Assembly: GCF_056712565.1 (NCBI RefSeq)
Contig: NZ_CM160072.1
DNA: 64,000 bases
Direction: 5' to 3' (one strand)
This document shows positions 52,801 to 55,800 of the stretch, piece after piece. Made by a program: the position numbers. Each line of letters starts with the position of its first letter. Position 1 is the first letter of the stretch.

Positions 52801-55800
52801 GGAAATAAACATGAAGAAGATTAAATTTACTGGCTTAAATGCCAGCGGACAGACTCACCCGAAAATCAGGATCGGGGATATTTTCCGGGATAAATATGGT
52901 GACAGCGTGGTTATTAATTCCGTGTATGAACGGCACATTACATACCGCCGCGCAGGGTACGACTATGACTGTGTGATGCCCGTTCATCAGTTCCGGCGTG
53001 ATTTTTCACTGGTATGTGCAGTACCACGCAGTAAGCCCACCAGTAAAGAGAAAGCACGGGCAAATATTCAGGTAATAAAGAACATGATTAACGCATTCAG
53101 GGGCAAGAAATGAAACGCGCACCGAATTTAAAGCACCAGCCGAAAGACAAAATGACGGAGGTGATTATCTTTGCGGGTAGTGATGCCTGGGCACATGCGA
53201 AAGAGTGGAGCGAATGGGCCGGAAAGCATATTGCGGCAGATGATACACATCCAGTTATTCTTGGACCGGAACAACTGGCGAGTCTGGCAGACACGCAAAT
53301 CATCGACAAAGGGCGCTATTACGTGCGCGTTTATCGTGCTGGTGAAATATCAGAGCAGCACCTTACACAGATAGCGACACTGCTTGCAGTGGCGGGTGTG
53401 AAGGAGGCGCGTTGCTACCGCAGCTTTGTTGATCAGCAGCCGGAGGACTGGACACCGCGCATGGCTGGACTGAAGGATGATGCGGAACGCGGTAACAGTC
53501 TGGTGATCAACCTTCCGGCGAAGACAAATTTCACCGGAAATTATGATGACGAATTAAAGCCTCGTGTTGAAAGTCGCGTCGATGGTGTTTTCTGGGTAAC
53601 GCCCAAAGTGGACAAGCAGTCAGGCGAAATTATCCGGCCTGAGACGTGGTTATGTTCTCCGCTTGAACTACTGGGAACAGGAACAATCGGCAAAGAGCAT
53701 TACCGCGTGATGCGCTGGAAAAAACCAGCAAACCATGAGGTCATTACAATGGCGGTCCCGTGCGGAGGCATTGGTGACCGTGACGGCTGGCGGTTGCTGA
53801 AAGACCACGGCCTTAACGTGACGACCAACGGCAAATACAGGGCTATCCTGGCTGACTGGATGCAGTTAAGCGGAAACCATGAGGAATGGCAGTTAAGCAC
53901 AACAACGGGGTGGCATTTTGGTGCGTACATCATGCCGGATGGTTCGGTCATTGGTGAATCAGAGAAACCCATCCTGTTTACCGGAAAAACTGCCGCTGTT
54001 AATGGCTATTCCGTGGCGGGAACAGCGGAGGGCTGGCGCGATACCGTGGCACGGCTGGCTGGTGGTAATCCGTCCATGATGCTGGGTGTGGCGGTATCGC
54101 TATCCGCACCATTAATCGGGCTGGTGGGTGCTGACGGCTTCGGGGTTCATCTTTTTGAGCAATCATCAGCAGGTAAAACCACCACACAGAACATTGCATC
54201 AAGTTTATGGGGAGAGCCGGACGCGCAACGGCTGACCTGGTACGGAACGGCGTTAGGTATCGCCAACGAGGCCGAAGCACATAATGACGGGCTGTTACCC
54301 CTGGATGAAATAGGCCAGGCCGGAAACGCGCGGGAGGTGTCCACGTCAGCCTATACGCTGTTTAACGGTTCCGGGAAATTACAGGGGGCGAAGGACGGCG
54401 GCAACAGGGAGATAAAACACTGGCGCACGGTGGCAATCAGCACCGGAGAAATGGACGTTGAAACATTCCTCAAAACGGAAGGGATAAAAATTAAAGCGGG
54501 GCAGCTTGTCCGTCTGCTTAACGTGCCGATGGAAAAGGCATCGCAGTTTCACGAATACAGCACCGGAAAGGCGCACGCAGACGCGTTAAAAGATGCCTGG
54601 ACAGAAAATCACGGGGCGGCAGGTCGTGAGTGGGTTAAATGGCTGGCAGGTCACCAGCAGGAGGCAAAGGACGCGGTAAGGGCATGTCGCGAGCGGTGGC
54701 GCAACCTGATACCGGAGAGCTACGGCGAGCAGGTTCACCGTGTGGGGGAAAGATTCGCCGTACTGGAGGCCGCGCTTGTGCTTTCCGGTCATGTTACAGG
54801 CTGGGATGTTCAGGCGTGCCGTGATGCAGTTCAGCATAACTTTAATGCCTGGGTGAAGGAATTCGGCACGGGCAACAGGGAATTTAAACAGATGGTTGAA
54901 CAGGCTGAGGCGTTTTTGTCGTCGTTCGGGTTCAGTCGATACCTTCCCTATCCAAACAGCGACGAGCGTGATTTACCGATTAAAGACCTTGCCGGATACA
55001 GAAAGGGGAGTATCAGAAACGAAGATGACGAGTTCCGTTTTTACACGTTCCCGCATGTGTTTGAGGGTGAGATAGCACAGGGATTTAATCCGTCTCACTT
55101 TGCCCGCGCGTTGAGTGCTGCCGGAATGCTGGAAGCGGGAGGCGACCGCCGTTACAAGAAAAAGGCGCTCGGCAGGATTGGCGGGAAGCAGCATATTTTT
55201 TACGTGCTGATGTTCCAGCCTGAAGCAGAAGATTAACTTCCCTGTGTGAGGTAAAAAGTTGCGGGTTATGCGGGTTATCCTGTGCATAAGTTAATTAACT
55301 GCATGATTAAAAAGGAAATCAATAACCCGCACGTAACCCGCAAAACGGCAGTTATAACCCGCAAATGTGCGATTGTAACCCGCAAAATTTCACTGTAAGA
55401 GTGTAAACAAGCGTAACTATCACGTTAAAACCGGAGAACAAACAGCATGACGGCGCAAATATCAGCTTACGGGCGGCTGGTGGCTGACCCGCAGTTAAAG
55501 ACCACCAGCAAGGGCACACAAATGGCGATGGCGAGTATGGCGGTCCCCCTTCCATGCAATCAGGCAGATGACGGAACGGCGACGATGTGGTTATCCGTCC
55601 TGGCGTTTGGCAGACAGGCCGACGCACTGGCAAAACACCACAAAGGCGAACTGGTGAGCGTGGCGGGTAACATGCAGGTAAGCCAGTGGACAGGCCAGAA
55701 CGGCGAAACGCGGCAGGGCTGGCAGGTTATCGCAGACAGCGTAATCAGTGCGAGAACGGCGCGACCGGGCGGCAAAAAAGGCCAGCAAGGGCAGGCTACT

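What the first reader, a model, noticed from the sequence alone, without database searches (positions are those of the whole stretch)
55260..55383. Iteron array immediately downstream of the primase-helicase gene: putative origin of replication
Within about 125 bp there are two tandem GCGGGTTAT units and four TAACCCGC units in the opposite orientation with 11/21/21-bp (helical) phasing, flanking an AT-rich stretch. Sitting right after the initiator gene and before the SSB gene, this is the arrangement expected for an initiator-bound ori of an autonomously replicating island.
Basis: seen in the sequence. Interest (0 to 1): 0.7.

Follow-up and report, generated by a model that had tools for sequence, protein, structure and literature searches.

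The report
Replication origin of a phage satellite
The repeat cluster is real and is almost certainly the replication origin of a phage-parasitic chromosomal island (a PICI) in E. coli, bound by the helicase-initiator gene just upstream; origins of this type are already known, so the finding is correct but ordinary.

Summary
TAACCCGC occurs 8 times in the 64-kb window (2.1 expected), and 6 copies lie in 55261-55383. Two are tandem, 9 bp apart, on the minus strand. Four are on the plus strand, spaced 11/21/21 bp. They flank a 44-bp spacer of 30% GC, the least stable DNA locally.

The window matches E. coli ExPEC XM. The array sits about 25 bp after the stop codon of a DUF927 protein whose helicase core is homologous to the SaPIbov1 Rep initiator-helicase. 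The element is a ~20-kb integrase-bearing island in the known PICI site yicC-dinD.

In 80 related loci the layout is kept, but the repeat unit takes six different sequences. Each sequence tracks the last ~110 residues of the protein, not its N-terminus or core. This matches the published PICI origin design, which was shown to work for EcCICFT073.

Function was not tested here, and the "primase" label is unverified.

In passing: a second array of the same repeats lies ~11 kb away at the island's right end, outside the window. It recurs in other islands and is unexplained.

The parts
53110..55236 (+). Rep gene: a 708-aa DUF927 initiator-helicase. The 'primase' label is unverified.
   Evidence: ORF. 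Pfam finds DUF927 at residues 169-436 only. It matches phrog_1139 'DNA primase' at E 2.3e-174. Residues 214-603 match the SaPIbov1 Rep 8tch_A at E 1.7e-14, and the SCCmec helicase Cch (5dgk) at E 9e-4. Foldseek gives significant hits only to 5dgk and 8tch.
54910..55233 (+). Coding region for the Rep C-terminal domain (residues ~601-708), the inferred iteron-recognition module.
   Evidence: Several relatives are 88-97% identical to the window protein in residues 131-600 but only 23-43% identical in 601-708, and they carry a different iteron (GTTGTCCC). The fold is not established: the AF2 model has pLDDT 41 and a PDB profile search gave no hit.
55261..55277 (-). Left iteron set: two tandem copies (TAACCCGC on the minus strand at 55261-55268 and 55270-55277), 9 bp apart.
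   Evidence: family D6. The same tandem pair starts 22-36 nt after the Rep stop codon in the 80 related loci. Some relatives have three copies (L019; UMNF18).
55279..55322 (.). AT-rich spacer, the presumed DNA-unwinding region.
   Evidence: 30% GC. It contains the least stable 30-bp window locally, starting at 55285. Its sequence diverges between relatives while the flanking iterons stay the same.
55281..55289 (-). DnaA-box-like 9-mer TTATGCACA (fits TTATNCACA) inside the spacer; its role is uncertain.
   Evidence: It is one of only 2 matches in the window, with 2.18 expected. A TGTGNATAA match is present in 28 of 38 type-A loci but in none of the other iteron types.
55323..55383 (+). Right iteron set: four copies of TAACCCGC at 55323, 55334, 55355 and 55376, spaced 11/21/21 bp.
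   Evidence: families D1, D2. The 11/21/21 spacing is kept in loci with other iteron sequences.
55447..55869 (+). SSB gene, the downstream neighbour in this island. It is not a constant neighbour in relatives.
   Evidence: TIGR00621 at 61 bits, above the 53.95 cut-off. In relatives the next gene varies: a hypothetical protein, or a second iteron cluster followed by a hypothetical protein.
46655..46665 (+). Left attachment-site core (CAGATCCAGAA) at the 3' end of yicC. It marks the left end of the ~20-kb island; the right end lies beyond the window.
   Evidence: The 11-mer is repeated at L001 13656 and 33781. Sequence shared with most E. coli genomes resumes at L001 33781. yicC-dinD is listed as a PICI attachment site in PMC6092414 Table S1.
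46864..48132 (+). Tyrosine integrase of the island.
   Evidence: RefSeq annotation of the identical ExPEC XM locus; phrog_1 integrase.

Best explanation
Positions 55260-55383 are the core of the replication origin of a phage-inducible chromosomal island (PICI-type satellite) integrated at yicC-dinD in E. coli.

Proposed mechanism:
1. Induction of the island leads to expression of the Rep protein encoded at 53110-55236.
2. Rep's C-terminal ~110 residues recognise the RTAACCCGCA repeats. Two copies lie on one side and four helically phased copies on the other, in opposite orientation.
3. Rep oligomers assemble on both sides of the 44-bp AT-rich spacer and melt it.
4. Rep then loads itself as the replicative helicase. 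The SSB encoded just downstream coats the unwound strands.

Shown here: the repeats and their non-random clustering; the position and layout; homology of the Rep core to the SaPIbov1 Rep; conservation of the layout with a coordinated change of repeat sequence and Rep C-terminus.

Inferred: Rep binding, melting at the spacer, helicase self-loading, and actual origin activity.
For: 1. The repeats are real and clustered. The spacer is the local minimum of duplex stability.

2. The upstream protein is homologous to the SaPIbov1 Rep (8tch, E 1.7e-14) and to the SCCmec helicase Cch. These are also the only significant Foldseek hits. SaPI Reps are self-loading helicases whose C-terminal winged helix binds iterons placed immediately after rep, with an AT-rich centre and at least two iterons on each side in opposite orientation (PMC9371898).

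3. Gram-negative PICIs are reported to have the same origin design 3' of pri-rep. The EcCICFT073 pri-rep-ori segment maintains a plasmid, and maintenance depends on both rep and ori (PMC6092414). I read the EcCICFT073 region myself: two tandem CTGTCTACC units 9 bp apart right after the stop codon, then an AT-rich spacer, then inverted copies.

4. All 80 IMG/VR loci encoding 58-100% identical homologues have an array starting 22-36 nt after the stop codon. The layout is the same: a tandem pair, a ~50-bp spacer, then opposite copies at 11/21/21.

5. The unit has six different sequences: TAACCCGC, TAACCCAC, TGAACCAAC, GTTGTCCC, CTTATCCCA and TGAACCCG. Each is tied to a distinct Rep C-terminus.

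6. Natural mosaics place the determinant in the C-terminal domain. L043, P0017, P0027 and P0031 have cores 79-97% identical to the window protein (L043 79-86%, the three others 88-97%) but a different C-terminal domain and different iterons. L043 shares the window's N-terminal domain (91%) but not its iterons. L006 has an unrelated Zn-ribbon/TOPRIM N-terminus, yet its C-terminal domain and iterons match those of L007.

7. The island has PICI hallmarks: integrase, an AlpA/excisionase-like HTH protein, Ant/Bro proteins, an Icd-like protein, PerC, one-directional genes, ~20 kb, and a known PICI attachment site.

8. Related elements are deposited as 12-16 kb circular 'plasmids'.
Against: - No experiment was done. 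Binding, melting and initiation are all inferred.
- The Rep C-terminal domain and the iterons lie within ~130 bp of each other. Part of their co-variation could therefore be simple linkage. The functional argument rests on all 6-12 copies changing together while the layout is kept.
- The fold of the C-terminal domain could not be established (pLDDT 41; no PDB profile hit).
- The experimentally tested E. coli origin, EcCICFT073, belongs to a different Pri-Rep family ('DNA primase family protein'). The functional precedent within E. coli is therefore by analogy, not homology.
- This island may be partly decayed: perC is frameshifted, and the Rep N-terminal region lacks the TOPRIM acidic motifs. 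The origin could be intact in sequence but unused in this strain.
Confidence: 0.85

Rival explanations
1. The array is a Rep-binding (or other regulator-binding) operator that controls transcription of rep, ssb or the downstream operon, and it is not where replication starts.
For: The array lies between rep and ssb, and no terminator was found between them. In relatives a second array with the same repeats directly precedes the next small gene and a conserved TATATATA stretch. This would fit promoter control.
Against: No sigma-70-like promoter was found on the plus strand in 54900-55700 or at the second cluster. The array keeps a fixed distance from the rep stop codon while the downstream gene varies. 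The combination of an AT-rich core, opposed repeats and helical phasing matches experimentally dissected PICI origins. Regulation and origin function are also not mutually exclusive.
Confidence: 0.07
2. The array is an origin by descent but is inactive in this strain, because the island is a decaying remnant that can no longer replicate.
For: perC is frameshifted. The island lacks the capsid and terminase genes of its capsid-forming PICI (cf-PICI) relatives. The Rep N-terminal region lacks the TOPRIM acidic residues.
Against: The rep ORF is intact, and the identical protein stands for 290 member sequences. All six iterons are perfect. The identical 3-kb rep-ori-ssb segment occurs in at least 7 complete genomes from different hosts and countries. 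The satellite EcCIMP1, which also lacks capsid genes and carries similar 'DNA transfer' genes, is mobilised experimentally (PMC11773190).
Confidence: 0.1
3. The array is a plasmid-style iteron locus for copy-number control or partition, or a packaging site, rather than an origin.
For: Iterated short repeats also occur in partition sites, incompatibility loci and pac sites. A second cluster exists elsewhere on the island, as handcuffing models would need.
Against: No ParA/ParB, Rep_3-type initiator or terminase gene is associated with the array. The units are 8-10 bp long and in two orientations, not 17-22-bp direct iterons. The co-varying protein is a helicase-initiator.
Confidence: 0.02

Closest known systems
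Replication origin of SaPIbov1 and other S. aureus pathogenicity islands (Ubeda 2007, 2012; summarised in PMC9371898)
   Same: It lies immediately downstream of rep. Short iterons sit on both sides of an AT-rich centre in opposite orientation. The initiator is itself the helicase, and its core is homologous to the window protein (8tch, E 1.7e-14). Its specificity resides in a C-terminal domain.
   Different: The host is Gram-positive. Its iterons are 5-6 nt of unrelated sequence. SaPIbov1 Rep has no equivalent of the window protein's N-terminal 130 residues. The winged-helix nature of the C-terminal domain is not shown for the window protein.
EcCICFT073 pri-rep-ori, the Gram-negative PICI origin tested experimentally (PMC6092414)
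   Same: It is an E. coli PICI with the same gene order: Icd-like, DUF4222, rep, ori, small gene or ssb, perC. Two tandem 9-bp-spaced iterons follow the stop codon directly, then an AT-rich spacer, then inverted copies.
   Different: Its Rep belongs to another family ('DNA primase family protein', 584 aa) and its iteron is CTGTCTACC. It integrates at a different site (ycfD-phoQ).
Rep-ori module of EcCIEDL933-type capsid-forming PICIs (cf-PICIs)
   Same: The Rep is 82% identical, of the same DUF927 family, with the same TAACCCGC iterons and the same first cluster.
   Different: In the O157 island a second, mirror-image cluster lies directly next to the first, and capsid and terminase genes follow. 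In the window's island the second cluster is ~11 kb away, and the cargo is three virion-protein-like genes.
Phage P4 ori/crr with the alpha protein (from my own knowledge; Ziegelin and Lanka 1995)
   Same: It is an E. coli phage satellite. A multifunctional initiator-helicase binds short 8-bp repeats through a C-terminal domain. The same repeats occur at two loci kilobases apart.
   Different: The P4 iteron is TGTTCACC. The alpha protein belongs to another family; PMC6092414 reports only distant similarity between PICI Pri-Rep proteins and alpha. The second cluster here is not shown to be required and does not match the Rep type in 2 of 7 islands examined.

Membership tests
PICI-type replication origin (SaPI and Gram-negative PICI) | Lies immediately 3' of the rep / pri-rep gene | tested here: met
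   The first iteron starts 25 nt after the stop codon at 55234-55236. The distance is 22-36 nt in the 80 related loci.
PICI-type replication origin (SaPI and Gram-negative PICI) | Two sets of short iterons in opposite orientation flanking an AT-rich region | tested here: met
   There are 2 minus-strand and 4 plus-strand copies around a 44-bp spacer of 30% GC, which is the local stability minimum.
PICI-type replication origin (SaPI and Gram-negative PICI) | The cognate initiator is a Rep-type self-loading helicase | tested here: met
   Sequence match to the SaPIbov1 Rep 8tch (E 1.7e-14) and to Cch 5dgk. Foldseek gives significant hits only to these two. This shows homology only; activity was not tested.
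PICI-type replication origin (SaPI and Gram-negative PICI) | A C-terminal winged-helix domain of Rep recognises the iterons | tested here: inconclusive
   Iteron type follows the last ~110 residues in natural mosaics. The fold could not be modelled (pLDDT 41) and no PDB profile hit was found.
PICI-type replication origin (SaPI and Gram-negative PICI) | The host element has PICI hallmarks: integrase, AlpA-type regulator, one-directional genes, 10-20 kb, a PICI-specific attachment site | tested here: met
   Annotation of the identical ExPEC XM locus. Island bounds of ~20.1 kb. yicC-dinD is listed as a PICI site. An excisionase/regulator-like HTH protein and Ant/Bro proteins are present.
PICI-type replication origin (SaPI and Gram-negative PICI) | The rep-ori segment supports Rep-dependent replication | not testable with these tools
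   This needs cloning and maintenance assays like those done for EcCICFT073.
Phage P4 ori/crr | Type I iteron TGTTCACC bound by the alpha protein | tested here: not met
   The repeat unit is RTAACCCGCA. The P4 iteron sequence is from my own knowledge.
Phage P4 ori/crr | Initiator of the P4 alpha family | tested here: not met
   Pfam finds only DUF927. PMC6092414 reports only distant similarity between PICI Pri-Rep proteins and alpha.
Phage P4 ori/crr | A second cis element kilobases away carrying the same iterons | tested here: inconclusive
   A second TAACCCGC cluster lies at the island's right end in the source genome (L001 33160-33312) and in 6 other islands. It does not match the Rep-adjacent iterons in 2 of the 7 islands. 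Whether it is required is unknown.
Iteron-type theta plasmid origin (Rep_3 / RepA / pi / TrfA class) | 17-22-bp iterons in direct tandem array bound by a Rep_3-type winged-helix initiator that lacks helicase activity | tested here: not met
   The units are 8-10 bp in two orientations. The adjacent protein is a DUF927 helicase homologue with no Rep_3 hit.
Iteron-type theta plasmid origin (Rep_3 / RepA / pi / TrfA class) | DnaA box(es) next to the AT-rich region | tested here: inconclusive
   One TTATNCACA match lies at 55281-55289. It is present in 28 of 38 type-A loci and in none of the other types.

The most novel reading that the evidence does not exclude
The origin may be bipartite. The Rep-adjacent array (in the window) would cooperate with a second, mirror-image array of the same repeats at the island's right end, ~11 kb away in the chromosome and ~9 kb away the other way round the excised circle. 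In O157-type islands the two arrays are fused into one dyad. The distal array could act like P4 crr, as an enhancer or looping partner or a second helicase-loading site. Alternatively it could let islands be replicated in trans by another island's Rep.
Probability: 0.15. Interest if true: 0.55.

Novelty: new member of a known kind. Interest (0 to 1): 0.3.

Why it matters
The result places this ExPEC island among replicating phage satellites and marks exactly where its replication should start. That is useful for annotation and for building vectors or curing strategies.

The comparative set is the more valuable by-product. It holds six iteron sequences in one fixed layout, each paired with a distinct ~110-residue Rep C-terminus, plus natural domain-swap mosaics. 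This is a ready-made specificity table for the DUF927 initiators found widely in Enterobacterales satellites. It predicts which islands can cross-replicate or interfere with each other.

The displaced second array is a small open question about how these origins are organised.

Tried and rejected
- Structure of Rep. The full-length AF2 model was poor (mean pLDDT 57; ATPase core and C-terminal domain below 50). The C-terminal-domain-only model was worse (pLDDT 41). Neither could show a winged helix. A C-terminal-domain profile against PDB sequences gave only noise.
- RNA explanation. An Rfam scan of the whole island at E<=1 found nothing.
- Promoter or terminator explanation. No plus-strand sigma-70-like site and no terminator were found around the array, and none at the distal cluster's TATATATA stretch.
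- Published attachment core. GAGCAGATTCAA, given for the yicC-dinD PICI EcCIRM13514, is not present in L001 even with one mismatch. The repeat here is CAGATCCAGAA.
- Within-type conservation as a footprint. Among type-A loci, iteron columns are only slightly more conserved than the spacers (0.97 vs 0.91), because these loci are close relatives. The between-type comparison carries the argument.
- DnaA box as a general feature. Rejected, because it is absent from all non-A types.
- Distal cluster as a strictly cognate crr-like site. Weakened by BH100N (CFT073-type Rep, TGTCTACC iterons) and STEC379 (type-C Rep). Both still carry a TAACCCGC distal cluster. The distal modules are about 82% identical overall, so intact repeats there do not prove selection.
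- A literature search for the 8-mer itself returned only irrelevant papers.
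Full report
**The observation**

The sequence at 55237-55446 is the gap between a 708-aa ORF (53110-55236) and a 140-aa ORF (55447-55869).

The 8-mer TAACCCGC occurs 8 times in the 64-kb window on both strands. Dinucleotide-preserving shuffles give 2.12 +/- 1.37, and none of 100 reached 8. Six copies lie within 55261-55383:
- Two are on the minus strand at 55261 and 55270. On the plus strand they read TGCGGGTTA TGCGGGTTA, with a 9-bp period.
- Four are on the plus strand at 55323, 55334, 55355 and 55376, spaced 11, 21 and 21 bp.

The extended unit is RTAACCCGCA.

Between the two sets lies a 44-bp stretch of 30% GC. The gap as a whole is 42% GC and the island 49%. The least stable 30-bp duplex window within 54800-55900 starts at 55285, about 2.9 SD from the mean. 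That is the 98.7th percentile of the window.

**Where it sits**

The region is 100% identical to the chromosome of E. coli ExPEC XM and at least six other complete genomes.

The RefSeq annotation of that locus shows an island inserted between yicC and dinD. Its genes, in order, are:
- a tyrosine integrase;
- a small HTH protein that matches excisionase/regulator families;
- Rha, AntA/B and Bro-N proteins;
- an Icd-like protein and a DUF4222 protein;
- the DUF927 protein, then the array;
- SSB, a ProQ/FinO protein and a frameshifted perC;
- three large genes matching phage virion-protein families (phrog_992, 1145 and 684).

An 11-bp direct repeat (CAGATCCAGAA) at the 3' end of yicC recurs ~20.1 kb downstream. 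At that point sequence common to most E. coli genomes resumes. The island therefore runs from window position 46655 to about 66790, beyond the window.

yicC-dinD is listed as an attachment site of phage-inducible chromosomal islands (PICIs) in Fillol-Salom et al. 2018 (PMC6092414).

Close relatives of the rep-array-ssb module are followed by HK97-type capsid, protease, portal and terminase genes. These are capsid-forming PICIs (cf-PICIs), and they include the O157:H7 island at phoQ-roxA.

**The upstream protein**

Pfam finds only DUF927, at residues 169-436. PHROGs calls the family 'DNA primase'.

Against PDB sequences, residues 214-603 match 8tch at E 1.7e-14. This is the SaPIbov1 replication initiator with helicase activity. 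The same region matches the SCCmec helicase Cch (5dgk) at E 9e-4.

A full-length AlphaFold model was poor (pLDDT 57). Even so, its only significant Foldseek matches were these two proteins.

The helicase-initiator identity is therefore supported by homology. The primase identity is not. The first 130 residues align to the TOPRIM region of a longer homologue (L006) but lack its Glu and DxD motifs. I treat 'primase' as unverified.

**Comparative test**

I collected 80 IMG/VR loci encoding homologues 58-100% identical to the window protein. For each I analysed the 400 nt after the stop codon.

Every locus has a repeat array beginning 22-36 nt after the stop codon. The layout is the same throughout:
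- two (sometimes three) tandem units 9 bp apart;
- a spacer of about 50 bp;
- units in the opposite orientation at 11/21/21 bp.

The unit itself takes six different sequences:

| Unit | Number of loci |
|---|---|
| TAACCCGC | 38 |
| TGAACCAAC | 29 |
| GTTGTCCC | 7 |
| TAACCCAC | 4 |
| CTTATCCCA | 1 |
| TGAACCCG | 1 |

Two circular 'plasmid' records also carry TGAACCAAC.

Each unit goes with its own Rep C-terminal sequence. Segment identities show that Rep is a three-part mosaic:
- P0017, P0027 and P0031 are 88-97% identical to the window protein in residues 131-600 (L043 79-86%). All four fall to 23-43% in residues 601-708 and carry GTTGTCCC.
- L043 shares the window's N-terminal domain (91%) but not its iterons.
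- L006 has an unrelated Zn-ribbon/TOPRIM N-terminus. It shares both the C-terminal domain and the iterons of L007.

Iteron sequence therefore follows the C-terminal ~110 residues, not the N-terminus or the core.

One caveat applies. The C-terminal coding region and the array are adjacent, so linkage alone would produce some co-variation. The stronger point is that all 6-12 copies in an array change together while number, orientation and spacing are kept. That pattern requires a common binding factor whose specificity differs between types.

**Mechanism and its basis**

SaPI Reps bind iterons through a C-terminal winged helix. They melt the AT-rich centre without ATP and load themselves as hexameric helicases, probably one on each side (PMC9371898 and references therein).

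Gram-negative PICIs are reported to share this origin design. The EcCICFT073 pri-rep-ori segment maintains a plasmid only when both rep and ori are intact (PMC6092414).

I read the EcCICFT073 region directly. Its Rep belongs to another family ('DNA primase family protein'). The layout is nonetheless the same: tandem CTGTCTACC units right after the stop codon, an AT-rich spacer, then inverted copies.

I therefore conclude, at about 0.85 confidence, that 55260-55383 is the Rep-binding core of the island's origin. The spacer at 55279-55322 would be the unwinding site, and the neighbouring SSB an accessory factor. Binding, melting and initiation are inferred, not shown.

**Rival explanations**

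- *Transcriptional operator.* This is not excluded as an additional role. However, no promoter or terminator signal was found, and the array is anchored to the rep stop codon while the downstream gene varies.
- *Inactive remnant.* This is possible for this particular strain, given the frameshifted perC and the missing capsid genes. Against it, rep and all six iterons are intact and widely conserved. A satellite that also lacks capsid genes and carries similar 'DNA transfer' genes is mobilised experimentally (PMC11773190).
- *Plasmid-type iteron, partition or packaging site.* These do not fit the unit size, the two orientations or the associated protein.

**The second cluster**

The source genome holds a second cluster of the same 8-mer at L001 33160-33312, which corresponds to window position ~66160, outside the window. 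It has three copies at 21-bp spacing on one strand, then an AT-rich stretch, then two exact tandem copies (33296, 33305) preceded by a near-copy (TAACCCGG) on the other strand. It lies ~470 bp before the right attachment site.

In O157-type islands, and in most TGAACCAAC and TAACCCAC loci, this mirror-image cluster lies directly next to the first, forming a dyad.

I inspected seven islands with the split arrangement. All seven have the distal cluster at the right end:
- Five have matching proximal iterons: ExPEC XM, AST217, O177:H21, UMNF18 and Br167.
- Two do not match: BH100N has a CFT073-type Rep and STEC379 a type-C Rep.

The distal modules are about 82% identical overall. The mismatches may therefore be recent recombinants, and intact repeats there do not prove selection. 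A P4 crr-like role is possible but unproven.

**Novelty and score**

Origins of this design are published for PICIs, and E. coli examples are drawn in PMC6092414 Fig. 2a, which I could not view. This island and its array are a new member of a known kind.

Interest is modest at 0.3. The iteron/C-terminal-domain specificity table and the displaced second cluster are the only parts a specialist might find new.

Noticed in passing
L001 33160-33312 (ExPEC XM chromosome 4176530-4176682; would be window ~66160-66310, outside the window): A second, mirror-image cluster of the same TAACCCGC repeats lies ~470 bp before the island's right attachment site. It has three copies at 21-bp spacing, an AT-rich stretch, then two exact tandem copies preceded by a near-copy (TAACCCGG). 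It recurs at the right end of 6 other islands. It is fused to the first cluster in O157-type islands. In 2 of the 7 split islands it does not match the Rep-adjacent iterons. Its role is unexplained.
   Followed up: partly
window 55281-55289 (minus strand): A DnaA-box-like 9-mer, TTATGCACA (fits TTATNCACA), lies inside the AT-rich spacer. A match is present in 28 of 38 loci with TAACCCGC iterons, varying only at the N position, but in no locus with another iteron type.
   Followed up: partly
window 53110-53500 (Rep residues 1-130): The N-terminal domain of Rep is an independently swapping module, 42-92% identical among otherwise close relatives. It aligns to the TOPRIM region of a longer homologue (L006, 918 aa with a Zn-ribbon) but lacks the Glu and DxD motifs. 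Primase activity is therefore doubtful.
   Followed up: partly
window 57470-60001, 60001-62061, and 62061 onward (L001 29062-31818): Three large genes match phage virion-protein families (phrog_992 'head protein' with a transglycosylase-like region, phrog_1145, and phrog_684 'virion structural protein'). The island has no capsid or terminase genes. This resembles the 'DNA transfer protein' genes of the satellite EcCIMP1, which is mobilised by a podovirus.
   Followed up: partly
window ~46780-46840 and L001 ~33690-33720: GTGTACATA-type repeats occur just inside both ends of the island, near the attachment-site cores. They may be integrase or excisionase arm-type binding sites.
   Followed up: no
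L006 (NZ_CP148430.1, 12.2 kb) and L007 (NZ_CP069874.1, 16 kb): Complete PICIs, with integrase, rep, iteron array and (in L007) capsid and terminase genes, are deposited as circular 'non-mobilizable plasmids'. These are probably excised or replicating forms captured by assembly.
   Followed up: partly
L001 33313-33440: About 120 bp after the distal cluster is conserved between islands with different integrases. It contains a TGTATATATATAC stretch, a small GGGAT-CGAA-ATCCC hairpin and a GGGACCGCCGCC motif vaguely like lambdoid cosN. There was no Rfam hit and no promoter call.
   Followed up: no
window 51368-52558: The 396-aa ORF listed mechanically here is probably not a gene. Only its last 67 codons (52355-52558) correspond to the annotated Icd-like protein.
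   Followed up: partly
L019 and L094 (UMNF18 3904-3929): The number of tandem left-hand iterons varies between relatives, with three copies instead of two. This is the 9-bp unit gain or loss expected of iteron arrays.
   Followed up: no
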